Assembly: GCA_018658715.1 (NCBI GenBank)
Contig: JABHUQ010000034.1
Span: 22,230 to 86,229, forward strand
Length of the DNA: 64,000 nt
Direction: 5' to 3'
From: Fidelibacterota bacterium
GTDB lineage: Bacteria > Fidelibacterota > Marinisomatia > Marinisomatales > UBA1611
The notes under the pieces are model-generated. The model did no database searches, was not told the origin of the DNA, and saw only the letters and a list, made by a program, of their open reading frames with translations. Every line of letters starts with the position of its first letter. The stretch's first letter is position 1. The position numbers and the translations under genes are program-made. Shown here one piece after another: positions 7,219-64,000 of this stretch.

Positions 7219-7650
7219 ATGGCAGATAAAAAGAACAGAGCAAGTTGGGAACAATATTTTATGAATATTGCTACCGAAGTGGCCACACGATCCACCTGCG
7301 ATCGTAAACATGTTGGGGCTGTAATTGTTCGGGAAAAAACAATTTTATCCACTGGGTATAATGGAAGTATAAAAGGCCTGCCTCACTGTGATGAAGTTGG
7401 TCACGAAATGGTTGATGATCACTGTGTACGGACCACTCACGCAGAAGCAAATGCTATTGTTCAAGCTGCAAAAAATGGTGTTAGTATTAATGGGTCAGAA
7501 ATATATGTAACAGCATCCCCCTGTTATAATTGTTTTAAACTCATTGCTAATTCTGGTATAAAGACAATTTATTTTGATGAGTTTTATCGAGATGAACGCA
7601 TCATAAACCACGCAAAAGAATCGGGTGTTGAATTAGTCGAGATTGACTAG
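7219..7650 (+). CDS. dCMP (deoxycytidylate) deaminase
   Basis: Zinc motifs HAEANAI and PCYNCFKLI. 143 aa. Confidence 0.85.
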   Translation: MADKKNRASWEQYFMNIATEVATRSTCDRKHVGAVIVREKTILSTGYNGSIKGLPHCDEVGHEMVDDHCVRTTHAEANAIVQAAKNGVSINGSEIYVTASPCYNCFKLIANSGIKTIYFDEFYRDERIINHAKESGVELVEID

Positions 7651-7669
7651 TACATCGGAAGTCATTTTG

Positions 7670-9874
7670 ATGATTCCATCTAGCATTCCATTTCTATTCC
7701 GTTTTTTTGTACCAATTTTCCTTTCCATTGCTTCGGCGCAAATTTATGATATATCTATCCCACCCCAAGATGATGATTCTTACGAATATGCAGATTTCAG
7801 GATATACATCAATGATTCGTTAGAAACAATTCGAGGTGTATACTTTTTTATGCACCCTTGGCATGGAGATTCTCGAAATATTGTTAATGACGAAATGTTA
7901 AAAGCGTTATGTGATTCATCTCAATTTGCATTAATGGGTGCTCATTTTGATAATATGCACATGGAAACCGGTGTGGGTGATGCAGTGATTGATGCGATGA
8001 ATGGATTTGTCGAGATGACAGGGAAAACCGAATTAGCCTACACTCCCTTTTTTATAAATGGATATTCTTGGGGTGGTCAATTTGGCTATCATTTTACTGT
8101 TTGGGATCCAGATAGAGTAATTGGTTTTATCACTCAAAAAGGCGGGTACCACGATACAACAGATGCGGGCGATGCCATTTCTGTCCCTGGACTCATGTTT
8201 ATTGGTGAAGATGATTTGGATTATCGTATTACAAATCTCACGGGTGTTTTCTTAAATCACCGACCTATAGGAGCTCAATGGAGTCTTGCAGTAGAACAGG
8301 GGTCAGGGCATTCTCAGGTTCAAGATTGGGATTTATTAAATGCATTTTTCTACCATACAGTTCAACTACGATTACCTGATTCAACAGAATCAAATCATCC
8401 TGTAGAACTATTACCTATCGACAATCAAGATGCTTGGTATGGCGACCAATCAAGTTGGGTGATTGGATCATATGAATGTTATGATGGTGTGGTAGATTCT
8501 TCTTCCTGGTTCCCATCACAAAAAGTGGGCGAACTTTGGCAAAATTTTGCATCAGAAGGAACTGTGGAAGATACGAGTGAATGTGATGGGCCCCAAAATG
8601 TGAGTATACGCATTCCTGCGGAATGGGAGAGCCAGAAAGCAATATGGCTCCAGTGGCCACTTCAATTTGAACATTGGATGCGCCCTGAAATGGCTAACGT
8701 AATTGCCACGGTTCAAACTTTTGAAGATGTACATTTAATAGTACAAAATGAGAGTCATTTAGCCGATGCACAATCACAAGTTCAAGAGCAAGGTGGGAAT
8801 CCATTTAATTTAAATTATCATATATGGGAGCATAACAACGCTTGGCTCCGAGATAATGGCCCACTGTATGTTAAACAAGAAAATGAATTAACTATTCATA
8901 ATATGCAATTTGATTCTTGGGGTGGTTTAGTCCCCAATTATCAAGAAGATAATGCCATACCCTGCACTATTGCTTACGAGCTAGGATTAGATTGTAATAC
9001 ATTGGATTTTATTATGGAAAGAGGAAACCTCGAATTTAATGGCTCCGGAGCTCTTATCACCAATTGGGATTGTTGGGCAGATAGAAACCCAAATTTAGTT
9101 CAAAATGAATTAGATCTTTATTTAAAACAGATATGGGGATTAGATCAAATCGTGTGGACCTATGGACATTCTGAATGGGATGTAACTACTGGCCATATTG
9201 ACGGTGTGGCGCGATTTGTGAATGATTCTACGGTTCTTGTTGGGAATGTTATCAATGCAAATGATCCCGATGCTTGGATATGTGATTCAGCAGCCGTTGT
9301 TATTGAAAATGCAGGATTTAATGTAGTCAGAATGGATATGCCCGGATACATTGATTATTATAATTGGACTATTCCTGCACTTTATCTTAATTACATCATA
9401 GTGGATGGTGCCATCATTGGGAATGCTTATAACGTTCCTGAATGGGATAATGAAGCTCAATCTTTATTAGAAGTATTATTCCCTCGCTATGAAGTCATTT
9501 TATTATACACACCAGAAGTAAATCTTTCTGGAGGTGGGATTCATTGTATTACTAATGATCAGCCTGAAATCATTGATATTTTGAGTATGAAAAATAATAA
9601 TTTACTCCCTTCACAATTTCAACTTCATAACCCCTACCCAAATCCCTTTAATCCAACAACCATCATCCCATTTTCGGTAGAAACGCAGAGTATAGCATCT
9701 CTACAGTTGTACGAAATAACTGGTCGGTTGGTGGAAATATTATTTGATGGTATTCTTGATCCTGGAAATCATAAAATAAAATGGGATGCTTCAGCACAAT
9801 CCAGCGGGATCTATTTTGTTGTCCTAAAAACCCCTAATAAAACATTATTGAAAAAACTGGTTTTATTAAAATAA
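7670..9874 (+). CDS. Secreted three-part protein: alpha/beta-hydrolase-like domain, agmatine deiminase/PAD_porph-family domain, and T9SS C-terminal sorting domain
   Basis: Signal peptide IPFLFRFFVPIFLSIASAQ. GYSWGG nucleophile elbow with later GEDD and GSGHS. Deiminase motifs IPAEWESQKAIWLQWP, NNAWLRDNGP, GHIDG and catalytic GGGIHCITNDQP. CTD YPNPFNPTT...SGIYFVVLK...LVLLK (nt ~9614-9871). The ORF opens at TTG 7643; ATG 7670 is preferred. Confidence 0.8.
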   Translation: MIPSSIPFLFRFFVPIFLSIASAQIYDISIPPQDDDSYEYADFRIYINDSLETIRGVYFFMHPWHGDSRNIVNDEMLKALCDSSQFALMGAHFDNMHMETGVGDAVIDAMNGFVEMTGKTELAYTPFFINGYSWGGQFGYHFTVWDPDRVIGFITQKGGYHDTTDAGDAISVPGLMFIGEDDLDYRITNLTGVFLNHRPIGAQWSLAVEQGSGHSQVQDWDLLNAFFYHTVQLRLPDSTESNHPVELLPIDNQDAWYGDQSSWVIGSYECYDGVVDSSSWFPSQKVGELWQNFASEGTVEDTSECDGPQNVSIRIPAEWESQKAIWLQWPLQFEHWMRPEMANVIATVQTFEDVHLIVQNESHLADAQSQVQEQGGNPFNLNYHIWEHNNAWLRDNGPLYVKQENELTIHNMQFDSWGGLVPNYQEDNAIPCTIAYELGLDCNTLDFIMERGNLEFNGSGALITNWDCWADRNPNLVQNELDLYLKQIWGLDQIVWTYGHSEWDVTTGHIDGVARFVNDSTVLVGNVINANDPDAWICDSAAVVIENAGFNVVRMDMPGYIDYYNWTIPALYLNYIIVDGAIIGNAYNVPEWDNEAQSLLEVLFPRYEVILLYTPEVNLSGGGIHCITNDQPEIIDILSMKNNNLLPSQFQLHNPYPNPFNPTTIIPFSVETQSIASLQLYEITGRLVEILFDGILDPGNHKIKWDASAQSSGIYFVVLKTPNKTLLKKLVLLK

Positions 9875-20920: not shown

Positions 20921-21065
20921 TTACGCTCTTTTTTTCGTATTGATTTGTCTTGGTTTTCATGCCAATATATTGATAGTTTTAACTATTCAATCTATAAAAG
21001 TACGTGGATTGAATCCTTCAAAGAGAGGTATTTCTTTATTTAACAAACTAAACAGGAGTATATAT

Positions 21066-22847
21066 ATGAAATCATTTGTTAACATTCTATTAGCATCTGT
21101 GATGTTTATCGGTGTTGCTTTTTCTCAATCTATTCAAGGGAACTATCAGTTGAATTATGTGACAGTTCATTATACCTATGAAGTGAGAGAATTTGACAGT
21201 GCTCAAGATAGCGCAGAAGCTTCATATGACATAACGGCATCTTGGCCCAGTTCTGAATATGCTGCCGCAGGTATGGGTGTCACATGGGATTTATTGGGAT
21301 TTGAACCGGGCGATACGCTCGGGACAACGTTAATTCCTCTTATTTCACCAGAATACCTCGCAGGTTTTGGATATATGCTTACGGGCGATCCTACTGCACC
21401 AGGCGTAGCCATCAATATTGATCTTTATGATGATGGAAACTTTACAATCAATGATGGAAGTACTTACCCAACGACAGAAACCATTGATTGCTCTACCACA
21501 GCTGTAATACCTGCTGTCGCAGAAAATGGTACTTGGCAAGGAACGGCTCTTCTTCCGGTCGATGAAGATACATATACACTTGGTTGGGGGATCACACAAT
21601 CTGAAGTATTTGCTCAATTTAATGCTCCTGATTTAGCGACCATGGAATATGGTGTTGATTTTGGATCAGGGACTACTATGGAAAATTGGGGACAAATGAC
21701 TGTGAATTACACAGATAATACATTAGCTCAGACATCTGACGTAGAAATTTATTGGGAAGCTCATGATGGTGTTGGAAGTGCCTTAGGCGTTGATGATAAT
21801 GGATTTCTTAATGGAAGCACTGGTGTCCCAACTTTGGCATCTGATACTGTTACAATTGGTGGGACTGCTGCACTATTAGCATACTATCAGTCTCTTGGTT
21901 ATTATGCAGATGTTGCACCAATTAATGTTGGTACATACCCTATGATTAATGGACCTGGAAGTGAAGAAGTAGATGAAAATGGTGAGACAGTCACTGTGGG
22001 AGTAGTCGATGCAAACTGGGGATATTTATTCGACCCGGTTGGAGGCGATGGAGAACCTTTTACTGGTGACGAATTATTTCAGTTTACTGGTTATTATTTT
22101 ACATACAACTTCTTATCCACTGCTTTGACATTTATGGATACTGCTGAAGCAGTTTTTGATGCAACATCTGGTGATGTGACTGCTGCATATACAGCTGGTT
22201 TTGTTGCTGTTGCAACCATGTGGGGTGTTGATAGTGAAACTGCAGCTGCATATGGAGCTCAAGTAGGGGCTGATTTATATGCCGAATTCCTCAGTTGTTT
22301 TACAACAACAGGAGACTTAGACGGATGTGCGGAAGAAGTAGCATACGCAGGTATTGTTATGTCACTAGGTGCATTAGCACAAATGGGCATTGATGTAGAT
22401 GATTCTGATCATGACTCGCAAGTTGATCCAAGTACTGGAGGTTTCTCTACAGGTCGTCTTATTTGGGAAATAGATAATGTCTGTATCCCTGATAATACTA
22501 CACAGCGTGTGAATCCAAAATTCTATAATACTGCTGTTGTATCTGTTGATAATAATGCTCCCCTTGCTGCTAAATTTGAATTGTTTGGGAACTATCCAAA
22601 CCCGTTCAATCCAACAACTAGTATCAAATTTGCTACTGAAAAATTCACTAATGTGAATTTAACCATCTACTCTATACTTGGTGAAGAAGTAGCTACGGTT
22701 CACAATGGCAAATTAGCGGCAGGTACATATTCCATGTCTTGGAATGGAAAAAATAACTTTGGGAATAATGTTCCAAGTGGAATGTATTTCTACAAAGTGA
22801 AATCTGATAACCGTACTTTAACAGGAAAAATGCTCCTGTTGAAATAA
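21066..22847 (+). CDS. Secreted protein of unknown function with a T9SS C-terminal sorting domain
   Basis: AGGAG lies upstream of ATG 21066. Signal peptide MKSFVNILLASVMFIGVAFSQ. The body is rich in G, T, A and D with no domain I recognise. CTD YPNPFNPTTSIKF...SGMYFYKVK...MLLLK (nt ~22572-22844). The ORF opens at 20940 but that extension looks non-coding. Confidence 0.78.
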   Translation: MKSFVNILLASVMFIGVAFSQSIQGNYQLNYVTVHYTYEVREFDSAQDSAEASYDITASWPSSEYAAAGMGVTWDLLGFEPGDTLGTTLIPLISPEYLAGFGYMLTGDPTAPGVAINIDLYDDGNFTINDGSTYPTTETIDCSTTAVIPAVAENGTWQGTALLPVDEDTYTLGWGITQSEVFAQFNAPDLATMEYGVDFGSGTTMENWGQMTVNYTDNTLAQTSDVEIYWEAHDGVGSALGVDDNGFLNGSTGVPTLASDTVTIGGTAALLAYYQSLGYYADVAPINVGTYPMINGPGSEEVDENGETVTVGVVDANWGYLFDPVGGDGEPFTGDELFQFTGYYFTYNFLSTALTFMDTAEAVFDATSGDVTAAYTAGFVAVATMWGVDSETAAAYGAQVGADLYAEFLSCFTTTGDLDGCAEEVAYAGIVMSLGALAQMGIDVDDSDHDSQVDPSTGGFSTGRLIWEIDNVCIPDNTTQRVNPKFYNTAVVSVDNNAPLAAKFELFGNYPNPFNPTTSIKFATEKFTNVNLTIYSILGEEVATVHNGKLAAGTYSMSWNGKNNFGNNVPSGMYFYKVKSDNRTLTGKMLLLK

Positions 22848-22888
22848 TTGTGTTTATTTACAACGTTTAATTAACAATAACTAAAAAA

Positions 22889-22922
22889 TGAGCAGTCTGA
22901 ATTCAGACTGCTCATTTTTATT
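22889..22922 (+). terminator. Rho-independent terminator after the T9SS protein gene
   Basis: Perfect palindrome TGAGCAGTCTGAATTCAGACTGCTCA (22889-22914) followed by TTTTTATTAT. Confidence 0.75.
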
Positions 22923-22932
22923 ATGGCACCTT

Positions 22933-25900
22933 ATGAAAAAAATCATTCTATTATTCTTATTATTTAACTTTGTTTTTTCACAAAACAGCTCATTATCTGG
23001 CTATGTGAAAGACGAAACAAATGGAGATCCCTTACTCGGTGCAAATGTTGTCCTTTCCGGAACGACTATGGGTGCAGCAACAGGTATGGATGGAAGTTAT
23101 AATATTACAAATATAAAGGCTGGAGATTATAAAATTTTAGTGACCTATATTGGTTTCGAAACATTGGAGTTTAATTTAACCATACCCTATAACGAATCAA
23201 TCCAACAAGATTTTAATTTATCACCTGAAGCAATTCAGATGGAAACATACGTAGTAACTGCTTCTAGAAGGCGCGAACGTGTTGAAGATGCTCCTGCAGC
23301 TATTTCTGTAATTACAAAAAAAGATATTCGTAGAGAAAGTAATACTAATCTCGGAGACTATTTAAAAGGAACAAAAGGAATTGATTTCACCCAATCTGGC
23401 ATTGATAGTTACAATATGACAGCACGAGGATTTAATTCATCCTTTAGCTCACGATTATTAACATTGACCGATGGACGTATGGCAAATGTGCCATCCTTAC
23501 GATTAACGGCCTATAATGTAATTCCAGTATCTTTTGAAGATGTTGAACAAATAGAAGTCGTACTTGGCCCATCATCTGCTTTGTATGGCCCTAATGCTCA
23601 TAGTGGCGTATTAAATATTGTAACAAGTTCCCCGCTTCGTACGCAAGGAACATCTATTAATATTCAAGGTGGTTTTTTAAATCAGGCGGATACAGATTTA
23701 CTGCAAAAATTAACATTTAGGACAGCCCACAAATATAAAGATTTTGGTTTTAAAATTTCTGGTGTCGCATTGCGAGGCCAAGATTGGACGCATTATAATG
23801 CTGATGAATTAGAAGGCCACGATCCTGCCTTTATAGGGCGTCCAAATTTAAAACACAATTTTATAGATAATGGCGGGAATCCCGGTGAAGGGAACAGCCC
23901 ACTTTTTACGGAAGATATGTTAGGATATTTCGACGATGCAAATGAAAGTTGGATTGGTAAAACATTTGGAGATAATATAGCATCTTTTTCATCTGAAACA
24001 GGCTCCCCTATTATTACTGAAGATATGGTCGCTGAGGCCCAAAGTGACCCATTTAACCGATACTTTTTAGATAATGGTATTATTCTTTGGTATGTGACTG
24101 AAGATAAAATTGGTTCACAATATGCTGATGGGATAGACAATAATGGAGATGGCGCTATTGATGAAGGAATTGATCTAGGAATTGATGACGATTCTGAAAT
24201 TTGGTATGACAATGTAGACAATGATGGAGATGGCCTCGTAGATGAAGCAGATGAAATTGGAAGTGCGTGGCTAGATCGATTTGGTAGCACATTTGAAGGG
24301 GATTTAAATTACACAGTGGGCGTTGGGGTTGACTCCACCCATAAATTTGGGTTTGGAGATTATGAGTATGATGATGATGGAAATATTATTTTTGACACAA
24401 ATGGAAATGGTGAATTCAACGATTCCTGGGGAAGTGATGGTTTAGATAATGATGGTGATTGGGATCTTTACGTCGATACTGATGGAATGACCTATGGCGT
24501 AGAAGAAGAAACATTTTCTGACTTGAACGAGAATGGGACTTTAGACGGGAAAGAGCTATTTATTGATGGGAATGGAAATGGAACATGGGAAGATGGTGAA
24601 GTTCTCATTGATTGGGGTCTTGATGGGGTTGATGGAACTGGAGATTTTGGTGAAGGAAATGGAACATGGGATGGTGAAACTTTTACTGATTTAAATGGAA
24701 ATGGAACATGGGATCAGTTTGAGAATAACGATTTAGATGGAGATGGAAAACCCAGCATGGGTGAAGTAGGTGTGGATGAATTCGATGAAAAGGATTTTGT
24801 GATGAATTATGGAGATCTTCCTCGGATCTATAAAGATGCGAATGATGATGGTCTTAATGATTACCCAGACTTTAATGTAAGAAATTATAGGTATGACTTA
24901 AGATTCGATTGGGAACCAAACCCTGATTTTACCCTAAGTCTATCCCATGGATATGCTTGGGCACGAAATATTAATATTACTGGAATTGCTCGTTATTTAG
25001 CCGATGGTTGGGTTTATCGTTATTACCAAGGTAAAATTCGTTGGAAAAATTTCTTTTTACAAACATACCTTAATTCTAGCTATTCCGGCGAATCAGATCA
25101 CCCTACTAGAAATTTAGCTACAGGATCTTTGATTTATGATCGATCAAAAAAATTCAGCGCACAATTCCAGCACGCGATGGAATTATTAAAAGGAGATCTT
25201 CGGTTTGTTTGGGGGGTAGACTATTTCCTCACCATGCCCAATACACGCGGGACTATATTATCAGATAAAGAACTCGTAGATCGGAAAGATAATAATGGAA
25301 CGGGTGAAGCGGGTTCCCCCTATACATTTGCAGATAGGAATGATAATACATTTTATGACGATGGAGAATTTTATTCTACATGGGCAACAGATACACCTGG
25401 AGCATTTGGAGGAACACCTTCTGATACATTAAGTGTAAACAATGATGGTTCGGTTACATATTCTGATAATGTATTTCATGCTTTAGCCGATGGTTTTGAT
25501 AATGATGGTGATAGTGATGATTTTGAGGATTTAAATGGAAATGGTCTACCGGACTTTGATGATGCAGATGGTGATGGACTATACTCTTACGGCGAGACGG
25601 TTGAACCTGGAGTAAAGTGGATTGGTGAAAATATCTTTTTTGTTTATTCAGATGGCATTGATAATGATGGCGATGGGAAAATTGATGAAAATATTGATGA
25701 GGGGATTGATGAAGCATCCGAAGATAATAGATATACCGTAAATGAATTAGGTGCTTATTATCAAGTAAATTGGAAACTAAATGATAAGTTAGAAATTATT
25801 CAAGCTACACGCCTTGATATTCATGATAGACTTACAAACTTAATTGAATTTAATAATCAAGGATATGGGATGGGATATAACCCTTTAGATTGGGAATTTG

Positions 25901-27015
25901 ATGCATCGCAAAAAAATGGTCTACAATTTTCACCTAAAATTGGTTTCTCCTATAGACCAAAAGAGAATCAAAATTTTCGATTAACTTGGGCTACTGCTTT
26001 TAATACACCCACAAACCAAGCTTTATTTTTGGACATATTTGTAACGCGTGTATCCATTTTTAAAGTGTATGCGCGGGGTGCAGATGGAGGCTATAATTTC
26101 CCCAGAAATGAATTGGGAAACCCTTATTATTATGATATAGAAGAATTTGAATATATGCCAGTGGACACTTCAGAAAGTATGTTCTTCTATCCATCTGTTG
26201 ATCCTCGAATTGAAGGATTCTATGGACAAACAGTTATTGACCTTCCTGAAATTGAAGCAGAAATTGTTAATTCATGGGAAGTGGGATATAAGGGTCGATT
26301 GAATAACAGACTTTTTGGGACACTAGATTTATATACAAGCCATTATAGCAGTTTTGTTAGCCCTGTAACTTTTATTACTCCTATTGTTCTAGAAAGATCT
26401 ATTCTTGAAACGGATTATAATAATGATGGTGTAATGAATACGATTGAAGATTTCAATAATGATATTATTTTAGATCAAGATGATTATGATAAATCTTTTG
26501 ATCATTGGAGAGATGGCATTCAAGGTGTAACGGCAATGGATACAATTGCCGGATTAGCACCTCCTGTTGTGGTTGGCTATATCAACTATGGGGAAGTCGA
26601 TATGTGGGGAATGGATGCAAGTTTAACTTGGTTTATTAACCGTGAATGGAATTTAGATGTTACATACTCACATCTCAGCATGACTGAATTCTTTAATCCA
26701 ATAACTAAAGCAAAAGATCCCATTAATGCGCCAAAACATAAAGGAAGTTTAAAATTACAATATGCACCTCGTAGATGGCCTGTTTCTACATCTTTAAATG
26801 CACGATATGTGGATGGATATAATTGGTCATCTGGAATCTATTTTGGGAAAATTGATCCATATACCATTTTGGATCTTCACGTTGGATATACATTCAACGA
26901 TAATCTTTCTGGTAATTTGACAGTCAATAATTTATTAGATAATCGTCATACAGAAATTATTGGCGGTCCATCATTAGGGCGTGTAGTTGTATTTAGATTA
27001 TCGACAAAATTATAA
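22933..27015 (+). CDS. Very large TonB-dependent receptor (CarboxypepD_reg-like domain, plug, barrel) with two long acidic Ca-binding-type repeat inserts
   Basis: Signal peptide MKKIILLFLLFNFVFSQ. GYVKDETNGDPLLGANVVLSG. TonB box and plug ETYVVTASRRRERVEDAPAAISVI...LTDGRMANVP...VEVVLGPSSALYGPNAHSGVLNIV. Barrel-like C-terminal part. Inserts are listed as separate features. The track start at 22888 lies inside the upstream terminator hairpin, so ATG 22933 is preferred. Confidence 0.85.
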   Translation: MKKIILLFLLFNFVFSQNSSLSGYVKDETNGDPLLGANVVLSGTTMGAATGMDGSYNITNIKAGDYKILVTYIGFETLEFNLTIPYNESIQQDFNLSPEAIQMETYVVTASRRRERVEDAPAAISVITKKDIRRESNTNLGDYLKGTKGIDFTQSGIDSYNMTARGFNSSFSSRLLTLTDGRMANVPSLRLTAYNVIPVSFEDVEQIEVVLGPSSALYGPNAHSGVLNIVTSSPLRTQGTSINIQGGFLNQADTDLLQKLTFRTAHKYKDFGFKISGVALRGQDWTHYNADELEGHDPAFIGRPNLKHNFIDNGGNPGEGNSPLFTEDMLGYFDDANESWIGKTFGDNIASFSSETGSPIITEDMVAEAQSDPFNRYFLDNGIILWYVTEDKIGSQYADGIDNNGDGAIDEGIDLGIDDDSEIWYDNVDNDGDGLVDEADEIGSAWLDRFGSTFEGDLNYTVGVGVDSTHKFGFGDYEYDDDGNIIFDTNGNGEFNDSWGSDGLDNDGDWDLYVDTDGMTYGVEEETFSDLNENGTLDGKELFIDGNGNGTWEDGEVLIDWGLDGVDGTGDFGEGNGTWDGETFTDLNGNGTWDQFENNDLDGDGKPSMGEVGVDEFDEKDFVMNYGDLPRIYKDANDDGLNDYPDFNVRNYRYDLRFDWEPNPDFTLSLSHGYAWARNINITGIARYLADGWVYRYYQGKIRWKNFFLQTYLNSSYSGESDHPTRNLATGSLIYDRSKKFSAQFQHAMELLKGDLRFVWGVDYFLTMPNTRGTILSDKELVDRKDNNGTGEAGSPYTFADRNDNTFYDDGEFYSTWATDTPGAFGGTPSDTLSVNNDGSVTYSDNVFHALADGFDNDGDSDDFEDLNGNGLPDFDDADGDGLYSYGETVEPGVKWIGENIFFVYSDGIDNDGDGKIDENIDEGIDEASEDNRYTVNELGAYYQVNWKLNDKLEIIQATRLDIHDRLTNLIEFNNQGYGMGYNPLDWEFDASQKNGLQFSPKIGFSYRPKENQNFRLTWATAFNTPTNQALFLDIFVTRVSIFKVYARGADGGYNFPRNELGNPYYYDIEEFEYMPVDTSESMFFYPSVDPRIEGFYGQTVIDLPEIEAEIVNSWEVGYKGRLNNRLFGTLDLYTSHYSSFVSPVTFITPIVLERSILETDYNNDGVMNTIEDFNNDIILDQDDYDKSFDHWRDGIQGVTAMDTIAGLAPPVVVGYINYGEVDMWGMDASLTWFINREWNLDVTYSHLSMTEFFNPITKAKDPINAPKHKGSLKLQYAPRRWPVSTSLNARYVDGYNWSSGIYFGKIDPYTILDLHVGYTFNDNLSGNLTVNNLLDNRHTEIIGGPSLGRVVVFRLSTKL
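23790..24880 (+). repeat. Intragenic repeat region 1 of the receptor: reiterated DxDxDG / DxNxNGxxD acidic loops
   Basis: DGIDNNGDGAIDEGID, DNVDNDGDGLVDEADE, DGLDNDGDWD, DLNENGTLDGKE, DGNGNGTWEDGE, EGNGTWDGE, DLNGNGTWDQ, DLDGDGKPS. Near-identical nucleotide units (aatggaaatggaacatggga) recur around 24570-24710. Confidence 0.7.
25264..25725 (+). repeat. Intragenic repeat region 2 of the receptor: acidic Ca-binding-type loops
   Basis: DRKDNNGTGE, DGFDNDGDSDDFEDLNGNGLPDFDDADGDGLY, DGIDNDGDGKIDENIDEGIDE. Confidence 0.65.
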
Positions 27016-27212
27016 TTAATCTTATAATCCCCCTTCCACATAAAAAAATAAGCAGGATATTTTAAAACCTGGGAGCGGGGGAACAACCAGATTTCTTTTT
27101 CATTATCCTGCTTAAAATCTTGTCGAAAAAATTAGGCTAAATCGATTCCTTCAGCAAGTGTTTTCTTTTTGTCTCTATTCAATTAAATGAATCTCTGTTA
27201 ATTTCTATTGTA

Positions 27213-27809
27213 ATGATTGAATATTTAATTTCGCTTGACGTATCACTTTTTCAATTTATGAATTCAGGATTATCAAATACTTTATTTGATATCTTGATGC
27301 CAAAAATAACACACCAAAATAATTGGATAATTCCACTTTGTATACTTTTCTATATACTGCTATTTAAGACAGGGAAAAGAGGGAAAATTGCATTTATAAT
27401 ATTATTAATTGGATTTGGAATTACTGATTATTTTTCAGCTCAATATATTAAACCTTTCATTGGCCGTATTAGACCATCACACTCAATGCTGGATTCTATT
27501 CATCTTTTAGTTAATAAGGGGGGGAAATGGAGTTTCCCATCAAATCACGCAGCAAATAGTTTTGTTCTCGCTACCATTCTAAGTTATTTTTTTTCACAAT
27601 GGAAGTACCCGCTCTTTATATTAGCATCTCTCATTGGATTTTCAAGAATTTATGTGGGTGTTCATTACCCTGGGGATGTTGTCTTTGGAGCTTTACTTGG
27701 TTATTGTATTGCTTGGATATTATTAAGTATTTGGGTTATCCTAAAAATGAGAGAATTAAAACGCGGACGTACCTGGGTGTGGTATACCAGCGATACTATA
27801 AATAAGTAA
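27213..27809 (+). CDS. PAP2-family membrane phosphatase (lipid phosphate / undecaprenyl-diphosphate phosphatase type)
   Basis: The three PAP2 motifs are present: KPFIGRIRP, PSNHA, SRIYVGVHYPGD. Multi-TM. Confidence 0.85.
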   Translation: MIEYLISLDVSLFQFMNSGLSNTLFDILMPKITHQNNWIIPLCILFYILLFKTGKRGKIAFIILLIGFGITDYFSAQYIKPFIGRIRPSHSMLDSIHLLVNKGGKWSFPSNHAANSFVLATILSYFFSQWKYPLFILASLIGFSRIYVGVHYPGDVVFGALLGYCIAWILLSIWVILKMRELKRGRTWVWYTSDTINK

Positions 27810-31116: not shown

Positions 31117-32604
31117 ATGATGAAAAATAAACCGGGGCACTTTCCATTTACGCGTGGTATATATAAAAATATGTACAAAGATAGATTGTGGACCATGCGT
31201 CAATATGCTGGTTTTACCACTGCTGAAGAGTCAAATAAACGATATCAATATTTGTTAGACAATGGTGTATCTGGACTTTCGGTTGCCTTTGATCTTCCTA
31301 CACAAATAGGATATGATTCTGACCACCCAATGGCTGATGGAGAAGTTGGAAAAGTTGGCGTCCCTATTTCTTCCATTGATAATATGAATACATTATTTAA
31401 TAATATAGCTTTGGATCAAGTATCTACATCCATGACTATAAATGCGACGGCCGCAACCATGTTAGCTCTTTATATAGCAGTTGCAGAGAATAAAGGTATT
31501 TCTTCTCATAAATTACGTGGAACAATTCAAAATGATATACTAAAGGAATATGTAGCACGGGGAACCTATATCTATTCCCCTGATTTTTCGATGCGTCTGA
31601 TTACAGATGTATTTGAATTTTGTGATACACATATTCCCAAGTGGAATACCATTTCTATTTCTGGCTATCATATTCGTGAAGCAGGTTCAACTGCATCTCA
31701 AGAATTAGCATTTACATTTGCTAATGCTATTGCTTATGTAGAAGCTGCTATGTCAAAAGGACTCGACCCCAACCAATTTGGGCAACGATTATCTTTCTTT
31801 TTCAATGCGCATAATGATTTTATTACAGAAGTATCCAAATTTCGTGCAGCTCGATTTATGTGGGCTACAATTATGAAAGAGAGATTTGGAGTCACAAATG
31901 AAAAAGCACTGGTATGTCGTTTCCATGTACAAACAGGTGGATCTACATTGACTGCATCTCAAATCGACAATAATGTAGTCCGGACAACTATTCAAGCTAT
32001 GTCAGCTGTTATAGGTGGCACACAATCTTTACATACAAATAGTAAGGATGAAGCACTTGCACTCCCAACGGATGATTCTGTTCGGTTAGCTTTAAGGACA
32101 CAACAAATTATAGCACATGAATCAGGGATTTCCAATCACCCCGATCCTTTTGGTGGAAGTTATGTAGTTGAAGCATTAACTGAAGAATTGGCGAATGATG
32201 CATTCAAGCTCATAGAGAAAATTGATAATTTGGGTGGAACTATTTCTGCTATAGAGCAAGGATGGATTCAAAATGAGATTTCCAACAGTGCATATTCTTA
32301 TCAAAAAGATGTGGACTCCGGAGAACGAATCATTGTGGGTGTTAACAAATTAAAAACAGAAGAATCTTCCGATCCAGAAATATTAAAAATCGATCCAAAA
32401 GAAACGCAAAAACAAGTCGATGGATTGAAAACATTTAAAGCATCTAGAAATAATGATTTAATTGAATCAAAATTATCCATTTTGAAAAATAGTGCATCTG
32501 GGAAAGATAATGTGATGCCATTACTTATTGATTGTGTAAAAAATGGTTGCACTCTAGGTGAAGTGGCGGATATTTTGCGGTTGGTCGCCGGTGAATATAA
32601 GTAA
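31117..32604 (+). CDS. Methylmalonyl-CoA mutase-type acyl-CoA mutase, catalytic (substrate-binding TIM barrel) chain, without a B12-binding domain
   Basis: FTRGIY, WTMRQYAGF, GLSVAFDLPTQIGYDSDHP, SISGYHIREAGS. The Y in RQYAGF and the R in YHIREAG favour MCM over ICM specificity (by-eye alignment). Confidence 0.88.
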   Translation: MMKNKPGHFPFTRGIYKNMYKDRLWTMRQYAGFTTAEESNKRYQYLLDNGVSGLSVAFDLPTQIGYDSDHPMADGEVGKVGVPISSIDNMNTLFNNIALDQVSTSMTINATAATMLALYIAVAENKGISSHKLRGTIQNDILKEYVARGTYIYSPDFSMRLITDVFEFCDTHIPKWNTISISGYHIREAGSTASQELAFTFANAIAYVEAAMSKGLDPNQFGQRLSFFFNAHNDFITEVSKFRAARFMWATIMKERFGVTNEKALVCRFHVQTGGSTLTASQIDNNVVRTTIQAMSAVIGGTQSLHTNSKDEALALPTDDSVRLALRTQQIIAHESGISNHPDPFGGSYVVEALTEELANDAFKLIEKIDNLGGTISAIEQGWIQNEISNSAYSYQKDVDSGERIIVGVNKLKTEESSDPEILKIDPKETQKQVDGLKTFKASRNNDLIESKLSILKNSASGKDNVMPLLIDCVKNGCTLGEVADILRLVAGEYK

Positions 32605-61180: not shown

Positions 61181-64000
61181 TTAACCAGTTTGTCCCACGC
61201 CAAAATAAATAGATTTTGGATGAGAAAAATACCATCCGCTCACTGATGCTACCGGTAACATTGCTCTAGATTCCGTTAAGGATACTCCAATTTTTTCTTC
61301 AACATTCAATAATGACCAAATTTTATCTTTTTCACTATGATCAGGGCAAGCAGGATATCCAGGAGCTGGGCGAATTCCCTGATATTTTTCCAAAATTAAT
61401 TTTTCATTATTCAATGTTTCGTGTGGCGAATATCCCCAATATTCTTTCCGAACTTTATAATGTAAATGTTCTGAAAATGCTTCAGCTAATCGATCGGCTA
61501 TTGATTGGGCTAAAATTGCATTATAATCATCATTTTGCGCTTTAAATTCAGAAACAAGCGCCTCTAATCCATGTCCAGCTGTAACTGCAAAAACACCTAA
61601 CCAATCATTCTTATTTTCAGCTTCAGGACAAATGAAATCAGATAAACATCGGTTAGGTCTGTCCTTCCCTTTATCAAAGAGTTGTCTTTGAAAAGAAAAA
61701 GAAGTATCATGATTTCGATAATTTACTATAATATTTTCATTCACTGACTTAGCTGGGAAAATACCAAACAATCCTCTTGCCACTAATCGACGATTTTGGA
61801 TAATATTTTCAAGCAAAGATTGCGCATCATTAAATAATTTATTTGCTTCATTGCCTACTTTCTTATCATTTAAAATATTTGGATATTTTCCTTTTAATTC
61901 CCAAGTTGAAAAGAAAGGTGACCAATCTATAAATGGGACCAAATCATTCAATGAATAATCTTCTAAAATCTGAATACCTTCTTTTTTAGGTTTGGATGAC
62001 TCAAATGATTTCCAGTTAATAAAATATTTTCTACTTCGAGCTTCTTCAATTGATAAAAGGTTTTTTTGTTGAGTAGAATTTTTTTCTCTTATGGAAACAT
62101 ATTCATTTGTAATAGATTGGATGAAATCTTTCTTTTTGTCATTTGATAATAATTTTTGCACAACTCCCACCGCTCGAGAGGCATCCTGTATATAAATGGT
62201 AGGACCGGAATACACTTCATCAATTTTAATGGAAGTGTGTTTTTTACTTGTTGTTGCGCCGCCAATTAATAATGGAATATCCAATTTTTCTCTTTCCATT
62301 TCTGTTGCTACATGAACCATTTCATCCAAGCTCGGCGTTATGAGTCCAGATAAACCAATTATGTTTGCGTTTAATTTTTTTGCTTCTTTGAGAATTTGAT
62401 TTGCAGGAATCATAACACCCAAATCATGAATATCGTATCCATTGCACCCGAGGACGACGCCAACAATATTTTTTCCAATATCGTGTACATCCCCTTTGAC
62501 GGTCGCCATTACAATTGATCCTTTTGTTTGGGCTCCATTCTTTTCTTTCTCGATATATGGTTCGAGTATGGCAACTGCTTTTTTCATCACTCGAGCTGAT
62601 TTAATAACCTGCGGTAAAAACATTTTGCCATCACCAAACAAATCTCCTACAACAGACATACCATCCATTAATGGACCTTCAATCACATCCAAAGGTTGAT
62701 GTGCATTTTCTCTTGCTTCTTCTGTATCTATATCGATGAATTCAGTTATACCTTCTACTAAAGCATGAATAAGTCGATCTTTAACGGGGTTTTCTCTCCA
62801 GGATAAATCTTTAGCACTTTTTTTCTTTGTCCCCACAACAGAATCTGCAATGTCTAATAATCGATCTGTAGCATCATCTCGGCGATTAAATAAAACATCT
62901 TCAACTCTATTTTTAACTCTTTCATCAAGGTCAGAATAAATAGCTAATTGGCCTGCATTTACAATACCCATATCCATCCCAGCTTTAATGGCATGATATA
63001 AAAAGCATGAATGCATTGCTTCACGAATTCCATTATTACCACGGAAAGAGAAAGATAGGTTGCTAACACCACCACTAATGTGAACGCCAGCTAAAGTTTC
63101 CTTAATTGTTTTAGTTGCTCTAATAAAATCATTGGCATAATTATTATGTTCTTCAATTCCAGTAGCAACTGCAAAAATATTTGGATCAAAAATAATATCT
63201 TCTGGCGGAAAGCCCACTTTATTAACGAGTAAACTATAAGCTCGTGTGCAAATATCCACTTTTGTTTGATAGGAATCAGCTTGACCTTCTTCATCAAAAG
63301 CCATTACAATTACTGACGCTCCGTATTTCTTGATTATTTTAGCGCGGTCAATAAATAAATCTTCACCATCTTTTAATGAAATTGAATTAACAATTCCTTT
63401 TCCTTGAAGGTTTTTTAATCCTGTTTCTATAACATTCCATTTAGATGAATCAATCATTACTGGAACACGAGCAATATCAGGCTCAGATGCAATCATGCGC
63501 AAAAAAGTTTCCATCGCATTTTCAGAATCCAACAACCCTTCATCCATATTAATATCAATAATTTGAGCACCATTTTCGATTTGTTGCTTTGCCACAGATA
63601 ATGCGTCTTCATATGCTTCAGTCAAAATAAGACGTTTAAATTTTGCAGAACCCGCTACATTTGTCCTCTCACCCACATTCACAAAATTACTATTAGGGAA
63701 AAAAGTAAAAGGTTCTAAGCCGCTTAATTGAGTATATTTTGGTTTTTCTAATATAATTCTTGGGGAAATGTTTTCTACAACCTTTTTCATGGCAACAATG
63801 TGTTCTGGTGATGTGCCACAACAGCCACCAACCATATTTACCATTCCGGATTCTGCGAATTCTTGAATAAAGGAAGCCATTGATTCGGGTGTTTCGTCAT
63901 ATCCGCCCAGTTCATTTGGTAGTCCTGCATTTGGGTAAACAAACGTTGGTATATTGGCCAATTGGGATAATGCATCTAAATGTGGACGAATTTCTTCTGC
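61181..64000 (-). CDS. metH: Cobalamin-dependent methionine synthase (5' end lies beyond the window edge)
   Basis: Pterin-binding region, B12 motif [11 protein letters not shown], and AdoMet-activation domain ending [19 protein letters not shown]. The reading frame stays open upstream of Met 63961 to nt 64000 ([14 protein letters not shown]), so the gene is truncated by the window. Confidence 0.93.

What the first reader, a model, noticed from the sequence alone, without database searches (positions are those of the whole stretch)
22933..27015. About 1360-aa TonB-dependent receptor with long dockerin/EF-hand/TSP3-like calcium-loop repeat inserts
The N-terminus is an ordinary FCB-type receptor (signal peptide, carboxypeptidase-regulatory-like domain, TonB box, plug) and the last ~450 aa read as barrel strands. 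Two segments, however, are almost devoid of amphipathic strands: about 360 aa (nt 23790-24880) and about 150 aa (nt 25264-25725). They consist of reiterated acidic loops such as DGIDNNGDGAIDEGID, DNDGDGLVDEADE, DLNENGTLDGKE, DGNGNGTWEDGE, DLNGNGTWDQ, DNDGDSDDFEDLNGNGLPDFDDADGDGLY and DGIDNDGDGKIDENIDEGIDE. The DxDxDG and DxNxNGxxD spacing is that of Ca2+-binding loops in thrombospondin type 3 repeats, dockerins and EF-hands. Typical TBDRs are roughly 650-1100 aa. A receptor displaying about 500 aa of probable Ca-binding or dockerin-like modules in what should be surface loops could be a docking platform for other surface proteins, or a cation-dependent capture device.
Basis: partly seen in the sequence, partly recalled or inferred. 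Interest (0 to 1): 0.7.

Follow-up and report, generated by a model that had tools for sequence, protein, structure and literature searches.

The report
Giant calcium-loop TonB receptor of Marinimicrobia
This is a real, intact outer-membrane nutrient importer from the abundant uncultured marine phylum Marinimicrobia, whose two surface loops are enlarged by about 530 amino acids of conserved, probably calcium-binding acidic motifs, and whose gene always follows that of a secreted surface protein; its cargo is unknown.

Summary
The ORF at 22933-27015 (+) encodes a 1360-aa TonB-dependent transporter with a signal peptide, a CarboxypepD_reg-like domain, a TonB box, a plug and a predicted 22-strand barrel. 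The two acidic segments are the extracellular loops L2 (aa 282-650) and L5 (aa 771-935). They carry 11 Dx[DN]x[DN]G motifs, against about 1 expected from their composition. The ligand positions are conserved or invariant in more than 100 homologs.

It is not a mis-assembly. All 120 close homologs (1171-1447 aa) keep both inserts. Relatives occur in at least 80 species-level genomes, nearly all of them Marinimicrobia.

The inserts are not members of the TSP3, dockerin, EF-hand or MopE Pfam families. They share only the calcium-binding linear motif. They are built from two uncurated modules that also occur in other large secreted proteins.

New here: a roughly 590-aa protein with a type IX secretion signal lies directly upstream in 50 of 50 loci that could be checked.

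The best reading is a calcium-stapled extracellular crown that forms the capture chamber of an importer working with that surface partner. Calcium binding, the substrate and the partnership are all inferred. I rate it a new variant of a known kind, of moderate interest.

The parts
21066..22847 (+). Upstream partner gene. It encodes a 593-aa secreted protein: a signal peptide, a roughly 480-aa very acidic body of unknown fold (70 D+E, 5 K+R), and a T9SS type A C-terminal sorting domain (aa ~510-589).
   Evidence: Pfam Por_Secre_tail/FlgD_ig/CHU_C. TIGR04183. Conserved directly upstream of the receptor in L001-L005 and in 50/50 genome loci with enough flank. The AF2 model is poor and only the C-terminal domain matches PDB structures. 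Charge.
22884..22919 (.). A 16-bp perfect hairpin flanked by an A-run and a T-run, lying between the two genes. It looks like a terminator or attenuator.
   Evidence: Sequence and terminator scan. In 66 related loci the intergenic spacers are mostly 69-109 nt (two are 267 and 290 nt) and fold at -23 to -42 kcal/mol for the short ones (no shuffle control).
22933..27015 (+). Complete coding sequence of the 1360-aa TonB-dependent transporter.
22933..22983 (+). Signal peptide (MKKIILLFLLFNFVFSQ).
   Evidence: Read from the sequence; inference.
22993..23256 (+). N-terminal CarboxypepD_reg-like domain (aa 21-108).
   Evidence: Pfam PF13715, E 6.5e-22.
23242..23262 (+). TonB box, ETYVVTA (aa 104-110).
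   Evidence: Aligns to ETMVVTA at the N-terminus of the Cir chain. That this stretch is the TonB box rests on my own knowledge of Cir and BtuB.
23281..23610 (+). Plug domain (aa 117-226).
   Evidence: Pfam PF07715, E 4.7e-20. It is 88-99% conserved among homologs.
23647..23775 (+). Barrel strands 1-3 (aa 239-281).
   Evidence: DSSP of the AF2 model.
23776..24882 (+). Extracellular loop L2, which is insert 1 (aa 282-650; 369 aa; 94 D+E against 13 K+R; 8 Dx[DN]x[DN]G motifs).
   Evidence: Lies between strands 3 and 4 of the model. Motif statistics. Length is 236-422 aa across the 121 aligned sequences.
24121..24255 (+). Module A, copy 1: YADGIDNNGDGAIDEGIDLGIDDDSEIWYDNVDNDGDGLVDEADE (aa 397-441). 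Its acidic positions are invariant.
   Evidence: Invariant columns D399, G400, D402, N403, G407, D410, D414, D418, E422, D426, D429, N430, D431, D440, E441 in 106 sequences. Motif-level similarity to PF11617 repeat proteins.
24385..24777 (+). Module B array: EF-hand-loop-like units of the form [FY]xDxNxNGxWDxxE (aa ~485-615). Copy number varies among homologs.
   Evidence: Alignment occupancy of 0.34-0.97 (lowest around aa 521-600). One strict PS00018 match at aa 530. The same repeats occur in P0246, P0252, P0271, P0258 and others.
24883..25242 (+). Barrel strands 4-9 (aa 651-770).
25243..25737 (+). Extracellular loop L5, which is insert 2 (aa 771-935; 165 aa; 3 Dx[DN]x[DN]G motifs).
   Evidence: Lies between strands 9 and 10. 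Length is 93-178 aa in homologs.
25645..25722 (+). Module A, copy 2: SDGIDNDGDGKIDENIDEGIDEASED (aa 905-930).
   Evidence: IDEGIDE..E is invariant in 106 sequences. It was one of the two search patterns that recovered the family in genomes.
25738..27006 (+). Barrel strands 10-22, with long loops L7 (85 aa) and L8 (75 aa). L8 holds a further conserved DYNNDG loop at aa 1161-1172 (nt 26413-26448).
   Evidence: Pfam barrel match.
27213..27809 (+). Downstream PAP2-family phosphatase gene, a conserved neighbour. Whether it belongs to the system is unknown.

Best explanation
The gene encodes a functional TonB-dependent outer-membrane importer of a marine Marinimicrobia (SAR406 / Neomarinimicrobiota) bacterium.

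Its 22-strand barrel carries an extracellular crown built mainly from loops L2 (369 aa) and L5 (165 aa). These loops are Cys-free, poor in secondary structure and strongly negative (136 acidic against 21 basic residues). They contain at least 11 Dx[DN]xDG / EF-hand-loop-type sites.

In seawater (about 10 mM Ca2+) these sites would be permanently occupied. Calcium would then act as a structural staple that folds and stiffens the crown, not as a signal. The precedent is BtuB, where two Ca2+ ions order loop L2, but here the scale is 5-10 times larger. The crown forms the ligand-capture chamber or lid above the plug.

The receptor works together with the very acidic protein encoded directly upstream, which is exported by the type IX secretion system. 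That protein would be a surface partner that catches or hands over the unknown substrate, comparable in logic, not in ancestry, to SusD with SusC.

Shown: the architecture, the loop placement, motif enrichment and conservation, the phylum-wide distribution and the gene pairing.

Inferred: calcium binding, the structural role of calcium, the direction of transport, the physical partnership and the substrate.
For: Domain set and TonB box.

The AF2 model has mean pLDDT 75.4 and 22 countable strands. Periplasmic turns are 2-6 residues, and both inserts fall on odd-to-even strand connections. Foldseek matches to PfeA, Cir, BtuB, FpvA and OprC have E 1e-14 to 1e-17 and probability 1.00.

The motif occurs 11 times against 1.0 expected, with 0 of 5000 shuffles reaching that number. 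The acidic ligand columns are >=90% D/N/E or invariant in 106-120 homologs of 43-94% identity, which is more conserved than many barrel positions.

All 120 homologs keep L2 (236-422 aa) and L5 (93-178 aa), and total length tracks L2 (r = 0.96). The genome scan found 125 relatives and kept 80 loci, nearly all from Marinimicrobia.

The upstream T9SS-CTD gene is conserved in 5 of 5 metagenomic loci and 50 of 50 genome loci with enough upstream flank.

The Dx[DN]xDG motif binds Ca2+ in near-identical fashion in at least a dozen unrelated folds and often has a structural role (PMC3123361). In BtuB, Ca2+ restrains loop L2 and raises cobalamin affinity about 1000-fold (PMC7360065). Marinimicrobia TBDTs are detected in ocean metaproteomes (PMC5776962).
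Against: There is no experimental evidence for calcium binding.

The inserts reach no Pfam, NCBIfam or PDB family.

Insert pLDDT is only 47-89 and the model pTM is 0.56. I could not inspect coordinates, so the ligand geometry and barrel closure are unchecked.

A terminator-like hairpin separates the two genes, so co-transcription is not shown.

The partner's body could not be modelled (pLDDT 63) and it is itself strongly acidic. That gives no electrostatic complementarity, so any contact would need cation bridges.

The neighbouring genes (ETF, Fe-S oxidoreductase, PAP2, DUF3467) give no clue to the substrate, and there is no riboswitch.
Confidence: 0.55

Rival explanations
1. Docking platform. 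The Ca-loop crown is a dockerin-like socket whose main role is to hold one or more T9SS-exported surface proteins, such as the upstream one, on the cell surface. In this reading the crown does not itself form the ligand site.
For: The pairing with a T9SS cargo gene is strict. The subfamily with the largest receptor (1442 aa) has a larger partner of 974 aa. In a Zixibacteria relative the receptor is followed by a 919-aa unknown protein and PorV. Ca-dependent loop motifs mediate dockerin-cohesin binding (my own knowledge).
Against: There is no Dockerin_1 hit and no duplicated loop-helix unit. No cohesin-like domain was found in the partner. T9SS type A cargo is normally anchored through lipid or LPS, not through a protein socket (my own knowledge). 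Both surfaces are strongly acidic.
Confidence: 0.2
2. Ca2+-bridged capture of anionic polymers. The bound calcium ions are themselves the binding sites, coordinating carboxylate or sulfate groups of acidic marine polysaccharides or other anionic organic matter, as in Ca-dependent lectins and CBMs.
For: There are many surface-exposed Ca sites carrying conserved Trp/Tyr/Phe next to the loops (GNGxWD). The same module B repeats occur in large secreted proteins that also carry a peptidase, LRR or PD40 domain.
Against: No glycoside hydrolase, lyase or SusD-like gene lies in the conserved neighbourhood. No CBM or lectin family is detected.
Confidence: 0.12
3. Direct metal capture. The acidic loops scavenge a trace cation (lanthanides, Fe, Ni, Cu), which the barrel then imports.
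For: EF-hand-type loops bind lanthanides more tightly than Ca2+ (my own knowledge; compare PMC12152738, listed). Module A resembles the PF11617 'putative metal-binding motif'. A Ni-SOD gene follows the receptor in some relatives.
Against: Module A scores 8 bits against a cut-off of 27 for PF11617 and lacks that family's Cys. Ni-SOD is absent in this window. Seawater Ca2+ and Mg2+ would saturate sites of ordinary affinity (inference). No metal-regulatory element was found.
Confidence: 0.07
4. Oar-like export channel. This would be a TonB-dependent transporter that secretes a protein outward, as Myxococcus Oar does for PopC.
For: The overall layout is the same: an N-terminal CarboxypepD_reg domain, a plug and an oversized barrel. 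Oar is a documented TBDT required for protein secretion (PMC6434023, listed).
Against: The neighbouring protein already carries a T9SS export signal. Homology to Oar was not tested here, and nothing in the locus points to an exported substrate.
Confidence: 0.04
5. Artefact. The locus is a chimeric mis-assembly, a decaying gene, or meaningless low-complexity filler.
For: None, beyond the unusual length and composition.
Against: The ORF is intact. There are 120 close homologs of 1171-1447 aa from independent assemblies (ENA, JGI, Tara, NCBI, SAGs), all carrying both inserts. The acidic columns are invariant. There is no GC break and no DNA repeat.
Confidence: 0.01

Closest known systems
BtuB, the E. 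coli cobalamin TonB-dependent transporter with Ca2+ sites in its extracellular loops
   Same: Both are TBDTs with a 22-strand barrel and a plug. In both, acidic residues in extracellular loops bind Ca2+. In BtuB, Ca2+ restrains loop L2 and raises ligand affinity about 1000-fold (PMC7360065). BtuB with bound calcium (1nqg) is among the fold matches.
   Different: BtuB has two Ca sites in an aspartate cage on short loops and is 594 aa long. Here at least 11 linear-motif sites are spread over about 530 aa of L2 and L5. BtuB models score far below their cut-offs (TIGR01779: 86.6 against 599.7 bits), and there is no cobalamin riboswitch.
SusC/RagA-SusD pairs of Bacteroidota
   Same: Both belong to the FCB-group lineage. 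Both have an N-terminal CarboxypepD_reg-like extension, a plug and a large barrel. In both, the gene of a surface-exposed partner protein lies next to the receptor gene.
   Different: TIGR04056 scores 96.8 against a cut-off of 368 bits, and the SusC signature scores 13.1 against 46.2 bits. The partner lies upstream and is a T9SS-CTD protein of unknown fold, not a SusD lipoprotein. The lid-like mass is built into the receptor's own loops.
The Dx[DN]xDG calcium-binding linear motif class (Rigden et al. 2011, PMC3123361)
   Same: The sequence motif is identical, followed by a downstream acidic ligand. It sits in irregular, loop-rich insertions stabilised by several Ca2+ ions, which is typical of a structural role.
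   Different: That paper does not mention outer membranes at all (0 occurrences of 'outer membrane'). Here the motifs are arrayed more than 10 times inside TBDT loops. Binding is untested.
Thrombospondin type 3 repeats, bacterial TSP3 repeats, dockerin type I and EF-hand pairs
   Same: They share the DxDxDG / DxNxNGxxD spacing. TSP3 repeats are likewise poor in secondary structure and wrapped around Ca2+ (PMC3123361).
   Different: There are no Pfam hits. The protein has no Cys, whereas TSP3 repeats are disulfide-rich (my own knowledge). It has no loop-helix or helix-loop-helix units.
Pfam PF11617 (Cu-binding_MopE, 'putative metal-binding motif' DGxDNDCDGxxDE)
   Same: Module A (DGIDNDGDGxIDE) aligns motif-for-motif with proteins made of 20 or more PF11617 repeats (P0244, P0254).
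   Different: Cys is replaced by Gly. The score is 8.1 against a cut-off of 27 bits. Only two copies are present, embedded in a barrel loop.
Oar of Myxococcus xanthus
   Same: It is an oversized TBDT with an N-terminal CarboxypepD_reg domain (PMC6434023; the domain layout is from my own knowledge).
   Different: Oar is implicated in export of PopC. No Ca-loop inserts are known for it. Homology was not tested here.

Membership tests
TonB-dependent receptor/transporter | Plug domain | tested here: met
   PF07715 at aa 117-226, E 4.7e-20, 72.5 bits against a cut-off of 23.9.
TonB-dependent receptor/transporter | TonB box at the N-terminal side of the plug | tested here: met
   ETYVVTAS (aa 104-111) aligns to ETMVVTAS of Cir.
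TonB-dependent receptor/transporter | 22-strand beta-barrel | tested here: met
   PF00593 at aa 787-1334, 96.2 bits. There are 22 long strands in the AF2 model. Foldseek to PfeA, Cir and BtuB gives E about 1e-17 to 1e-14. Barrel closure was not checked on coordinates.
TonB-dependent receptor/transporter | C-terminal aromatic residue (beta-signal) | tested here: inconclusive
   This protein ends in ...STKL, whereas the family consensus ends in ...QTKF.
SusC/RagA subfamily | TIGR04056 at or above its cut-off, plus the TIGR04057 signature | tested here: not met
   96.8 against 368.25 bits, and 13.1 against 46.2 bits.
SusC/RagA subfamily | Adjacent SusD-like lipoprotein gene | tested here: not met
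   The neighbours are a T9SS-CTD protein (upstream) and PAP2 (downstream). No SusD family appears.
Thrombospondin type 3 repeat (TSP_3 / TSP3_bac) | Match to the Pfam repeat model; Cys-rich repeats | tested here: not met
   No hit at E<=1 on the whole protein or at E<=10 on the inserts. The protein has 0 Cys.
Dockerin type I | Pfam Dockerin_1; duplicated Ca-loop plus helix segments | tested here: not met
   No hit. DSSP shows mostly coil in the inserts, with few helices.
EF-hand domain | Helix-loop-helix with a canonical 12-residue loop | tested here: not met
   EF-hand_1 and EF-hand_5 reach 8-12 bits against cut-offs of about 25. There is one strict PS00018 loop match (aa 530) and five relaxed ones, but no flanking helices.
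Dx[DN]xDG calcium-binding linear motif (Rigden class) | Motif plus a downstream acidic ligand, conserved among homologs | tested here: met
   11 copies against 1.0 expected. Ligand columns are >=90% D/N/E or invariant.
Dx[DN]xDG calcium-binding linear motif (Rigden class) | Actual Ca2+ coordination | not testable with these tools
   This needs ITC, 45Ca or Tb3+ assays, or a structure.
PF11617 Cu-binding_MopE motif | Pfam score at or above 27 bits; Cys-containing DGxDNDCDG | tested here: not met
   8.1 bits, with Gly in place of Cys.
T9SS type A cargo (upstream protein) | C-terminal sorting domain | tested here: met
   PF18962 at 35.4 bits against a cut-off of 27. TIGR04183 at 40.8 against 23. 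The C-terminal domain matches 8gl8_D and 8qb1_A.

The most novel reading that the evidence does not exclude
The giant receptor and its T9SS-exported neighbour form a calcium-bridged two-component capture machine specific to Marinimicrobia, with analogues in Gemmatimonadota and Zixibacteria. This would be a third architectural solution for outer-membrane nutrient capture, beside SusC-SusD lids and receptor-lipoprotein or hemophore pairs. In it, a Ca-stapled loop crown replaces the lipoprotein lid and serves as the socket for a T9SS-anchored binding protein. Modules A and B would then be two new calcium-binding repeat families.
Probability: 0.2. Interest if true: 0.75.

Novelty: new variant of a known kind. 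Interest (0 to 1): 0.55.

Why it matters
Marinimicrobia (SAR406) are among the most abundant uncultured heterotrophs of the dark and low-oxygen ocean. What they take up, and how, is poorly known.

This receptor is a single-copy gene found across the phylum in a fixed neighbourhood. It is therefore likely to be one of the lineage's main gates for an important nutrient.

It shows an unusual way to build a large extracellular structure without disulfides or regular secondary structure, presumably by exploiting the 10 mM calcium of seawater. It is also always paired with a type IX-secreted protein instead of a SusD-like lipoprotein.

If the pair works together, it would extend the known designs of outer-membrane uptake systems. 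It would also give a concrete target for metaproteomic, structural and heterologous-expression studies of SAR406 nutrition. In addition, two acidic repeat modules with no Pfam, NCBIfam or PDB coverage are defined here.

Tried and rejected
- **Pfam on the inserts.** I searched the whole protein, both inserts and two short module A segments at E up to 10. There was no TSP_3, TSP3_bac or Dockerin hit, and only sub-threshold EF-hand and MopE hits.
- **PDB sequence searches.** I searched insert 1, a module A segment and a module B protein. Nothing meaningful came back.
- **NCBIfam and Pfam on module-B and module-A proteins** (P0252, P0271, P0283 and others): no family.
- **Structure of the upstream partner.** The model has low confidence (pLDDT 63.4, pTM 0.43). 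The fold search recovers only the T9SS C-terminal domain, so the body fold remains unknown.
- **Model length limit.** The 1200-aa limit forced me to model without the N-terminal domain and the plug.
- **Cobalamin or other riboswitch control.** Rfam finds nothing in the window.
- **Recent DNA duplication or foreign origin of the inserts.** There are no tandem repeats and GC is uniform.
- **Literature.** Seven full-text searches found no description of TBDTs with such inserts or of this gene pair. The library is incomplete.
- **Calcium-driven export ratchet (RTX-like).** I considered this and set it aside, because the periplasm of a marine bacterium should equilibrate with seawater calcium (inference).
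- **SusC membership:** rejected on NCBIfam scores.
- **Mis-assembly:** rejected.

Full report
**1. The observation**

The ORF is real and intact.

The mechanical ORF list starts 45 nt earlier, at 22888. That ATG lies inside a perfect 16-bp hairpin (22884-22919) flanked by an A-run and a T-run. The start at 22933, followed by MKKIILLFLLFNFVFSQ, is therefore the credible one.

Pfam finds CarbopepD_reg_2 (aa 21-108), Plug (aa 117-226) and the TonB-dependent barrel model (aa 787-1334). NCBIfam returns only sub-threshold hits to many TBDT families, best on the plug. ETYVVTAS at aa 104-111 aligns to the ETMVVTAS N-terminus of Cir.

The two acidic segments hold 17.5% and 20.1% Asp, against 5.6-7.5% in the other segments of the protein. 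Dx[DN]x[DN]G occurs 11 times in 524 insert residues. Shuffles that keep the inserts' own composition give 1.03 +/- 1.01, and none of 5000 reaches 11. The protein carries 12 of the 14 such motifs found in all long ORFs of the window. So the pattern is not a by-product of acidity. At DNA level there are no significant tandem repeats and no GC discontinuity.

**2. Not an artefact, and where it comes from**

A search of 5.8 billion proteins returned 1352 hits. The best 120 are all 1171-1447 aa long, with 50-100% identity, and come from independent marine assemblies. Those that carry a name are called Candidatus Marinimicrobia / Neomarinimicrobiota TonB-dependent receptor.

In an alignment of the query and these 120 sequences, none lacks either insert. 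L2 is 236-422 aa and L5 is 93-178 aa. Total length is explained by L2 (r = 0.96).

A scan of one genome per GTDB species found 125 relatives. The 80 loci kept (43-94% identity) are almost all Marinimicrobia/Fidelibacterota MAGs and SAGs, and the best are 94% and 91% identical. The gene is thus a core gene across the phylum.

**3. Placement of the inserts**

The 1200-residue limit meant I modelled aa 232-1360 (barrel plus inserts), using a 106-sequence alignment. The model has mean pLDDT 75.4 and pTM 0.56.

DSSP gives 22 long strands joined on one side by turns of 2-6 residues. Insert 1 lies between strands 3 and 4, and insert 2 between strands 9 and 10. In the standard TBDT topology the plug is periplasmic and odd-to-even connections are extracellular (established knowledge). 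These are therefore loops L2 (aa 282-650) and L5 (aa 771-935).

L7 (85 aa) and L8 (75 aa) are also long, and L8 carries a further conserved DYNNDG loop.

Foldseek matches PfeA, Cir, FpvA, BtuB (including the Ca-bound entry 1nqg), OprC and other TBDTs at E 1e-14 to 1e-17 and probability 1.00.

The inserts are mostly coil, with pLDDT 47-89. Part of L2 (aa ~321-421) reaches 78-89. I could not inspect coordinates, so barrel closure and ligand geometry are not verified.

**4. What the inserts are made of**

There is no TSP_3, TSP3_bac or Dockerin hit, even when the inserts are searched alone at E<=10. EF-hand models reach 8-12 bits against cut-offs of about 25. Insert 1 has no PDB sequence relative.

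I searched insert 1 against 1.84 billion representative proteins. Only 145 hit at E<=0.001. These hits resolve two modules.

*Module A* is Y-A-D-G-I-D-N-D-G-D-G-x-I-D-E-x-I-D-x-G-I-D. It occurs once in L2 (aa 397-441, doubled) and once at the end of L5 (aa 905-930).
- Its acidic columns are invariant in 106 sequences.
- It aligns motif-for-motif with proteins made of 20 or more copies of Pfam PF11617 ('putative metal-binding motif', DGxDNDCDGxxDE), but with Gly in place of Cys and only 8.1 bits against a cut-off of 27.
- Together with a preceding GSPxxTxxMxxxA...RY unit, it also occurs in 1227-1333-aa proteins with no Pfam family. At least one of these ends in what looks like a T9SS-type C-terminal domain (by eye, not tested).
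- Both inserts begin with a DN[GN]GxGExxSP element and contain module A. They therefore share one construction plan.

*Module B* is an array of [FY]-x-D-x-N-x-N-G-x-W-D-x-x-E units, which follow the 12-residue EF-hand loop consensus.
- There is one strict PS00018 match at aa 530 and five relaxed ones.
- The array lies at aa ~485-615, and its copy number varies between homologs.
- The same units fill large secreted proteins: one of 4813 aa, one of 1106 aa, an M6 peptidase, and LRR and PD40 proteins.
- These repeat regions have no Pfam, NCBIfam or PDB coverage.

Receptors with module B arrays also occur in Gemmatimonadota (1403 aa, MAE70924.1) and Zixibacteria (1164 aa, HKZ22093.1). In those, the acidic block starts near aa 440, not aa 282. 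Whether it sits in the same loop is untested.

**5. Genomic context**

Directly upstream (21066-22847, same strand) lies a gene for a 593-aa secreted protein.
- It has a type A T9SS sorting domain.
- Its body of about 480 aa is very acidic (70 D+E, 5 K+R) and has no detectable family.
- Its homologs are restricted to the same phylum.

The pair is conserved in every metagenomic locus examined. It is also conserved in 50 of 50 species-level genome loci that hold enough upstream sequence, down to 43% receptor identity. The clade with the largest receptor (1442 aa) has a larger partner of 974 aa.

The intergenic spacer is mostly 69-109 nt and folds stably in 66 loci. Here it is a terminator-like hairpin. 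This leaves open separate transcription or attenuated read-through.

Downstream neighbours are also conserved: PAP2, DUF3467 and DUF6913, with Ni-SOD in some relatives. They say nothing about the substrate. No riboswitch or other Rfam element is present.

The partner's AF2 model is poor (pLDDT 63.4), and only its C-terminal domain matches solved structures.

**6. Most likely mechanism**

The protein has every sequence hallmark of a working TonB-dependent transporter. The plug is 88-99% conserved across the family.

The Dx[DN]xDG motif binds Ca2+ in near-identical geometry in at least a dozen unrelated folds. This includes irregular insertions held together by several Ca2+ ions (PMC3123361). 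The loops here are Cys-free, carry a net charge of about -115 and are predicted to have little regular structure. Such a polypeptide can only be compact if cations neutralise it.

Seawater supplies about 10 mM Ca2+ (general knowledge), so the sites should be constitutively filled. I therefore read the inserts as a calcium-stapled extracellular crown that shapes the ligand chamber.

BtuB is a small-scale precedent. Its two Ca2+ ions restrain L2 and raise cobalamin affinity about 1000-fold (PMC7360065).

The invariance of module A against the variable copy number of module B suggests a fixed core with adjustable reach.

The strictly co-conserved T9SS cargo is the obvious candidate for a surface partner that captures or hands over the substrate. 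This resembles SusD with SusC in logic. The receptor, however, fails the SusC models, and the partner is not a lipoprotein of known fold.

All functional steps are inferred: Ca binding, import, partnership and substrate. Marinimicrobia TBDTs are known to be expressed in the upper ocean (PMC5776962), but that study does not identify this protein specifically.

**7. Rivals**

I considered five alternatives.
- A pure docking platform. Some context supports it, but there are no dockerin or cohesin features.
- Ca-bridged binding of anionic polymers. This is plausible, but no carbohydrate-active neighbours are present.
- Trace-metal or lanthanide capture. The support is weak.
- An Oar-like exporter (PMC6434023). 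The layout is similar, but there is no supporting context.
- An artefact. This is refuted.

**8. Novelty and verdict**

The gene family is already in public databases under generic names. My seven full-text literature searches found no description of the inserts, their modules or the pairing with a T9SS cargo.

It is a new variant of a known kind: a TonB-dependent transporter with an unprecedentedly large, motif-built, probably calcium-dependent loop superstructure and an unusual conserved partner.

Noticed in passing
window 21066-22847 (+): A 593-aa protein with a T9SS C-terminal sorting domain lies directly upstream of the receptor. Its body is very acidic and has no known family. The pairing is conserved in 50/50 related genome loci. 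The ORF list starts this gene at a TTG at 20940, but the signal peptide begins at the ATG at 21066.
   Followed up: yes
window 22884-22919: A perfect 16-bp palindromic hairpin with an A-run and a T-run lies between the two genes, and looks like a bidirectional terminator. The database entry P0001 (1375 aa) and the ORF list start the receptor inside this hairpin, which is probably a mis-called start. Related loci also have short, stably folding spacers.
   Followed up: partly
window 7643-9874 (+): A second T9SS cargo in the window: a 743-aa protein with a Porphyromonas-type peptidyl-arginine deiminase domain (E 2e-66) and a Por_Secre_tail.
   Followed up: no
window 23793-24290 (-): A 165-aa antisense ORF lies inside the L2 insert. 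It is most likely a by-product of the GAT/GGN-rich coding strand (GC skew up to +0.54 there), and there is no evidence that it is a gene.
   Followed up: no
P0252, P0246, P0271, P0269 (hits): Large secreted proteins, up to 4813 aa, consist largely of tandem [FY]xDxNxNGxWDxxE units (module B). P0252 and P0271 have no NCBIfam family, and P0252 also has no Pfam family and no PDB relative; P0246 and P0269 were not scanned. This appears to be an uncurated calcium-loop repeat family.
   Followed up: partly
P0283, P0285, P0289, P0320 (hits): Proteins of 1227-1333 aa with no Pfam family carry repeated cassettes of the form 'DNDxDGE-xSPvvTxxM...RY...YADGIDNDxDGAVDEGIDExIDE', which is the same plan as both receptor inserts. 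P0283 ends in what looks, by eye, like a T9SS C-terminal domain.
   Followed up: partly
L006 6001-13350 (Zixibacteria, GCA_035282785.1): A 1164-aa receptor with module B repeats is followed by a 919-aa protein with no family and then by PorV, the T9SS shuttle protein. ETF and lipoate-ligase genes lie upstream, echoing the Marinimicrobia neighbourhood.
   Followed up: no
L003 5735-6235; L004 8726-9211: In some relatives a nickel superoxide dismutase gene sits between the receptor and PAP2. It is absent from this window, where only a 198-nt gap (27016-27212) separates them.
   Followed up: no
L076 (CAXRJK010000024.1): A contig labelled as a Winogradskyella sp. MAG carries a typical Marinimicrobia-type receptor locus (54% identity, with the same upstream and PAP2 neighbours). 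The contig is probably mis-binned.
   Followed up: no
window 31117-32604 (+) and 61181-63961 (-): The window encodes two B12-dependent enzymes. One is a 495-aa ORF at the position where related loci carry a methylmalonyl-CoA mutase gene; this ORF itself was not scanned. The other is MetH. The mutase stays about 4-5 kb downstream of the receptor in related loci. No cobalamin riboswitch was found, so a link to the receptor's substrate is only a thought.
   Followed up: partly
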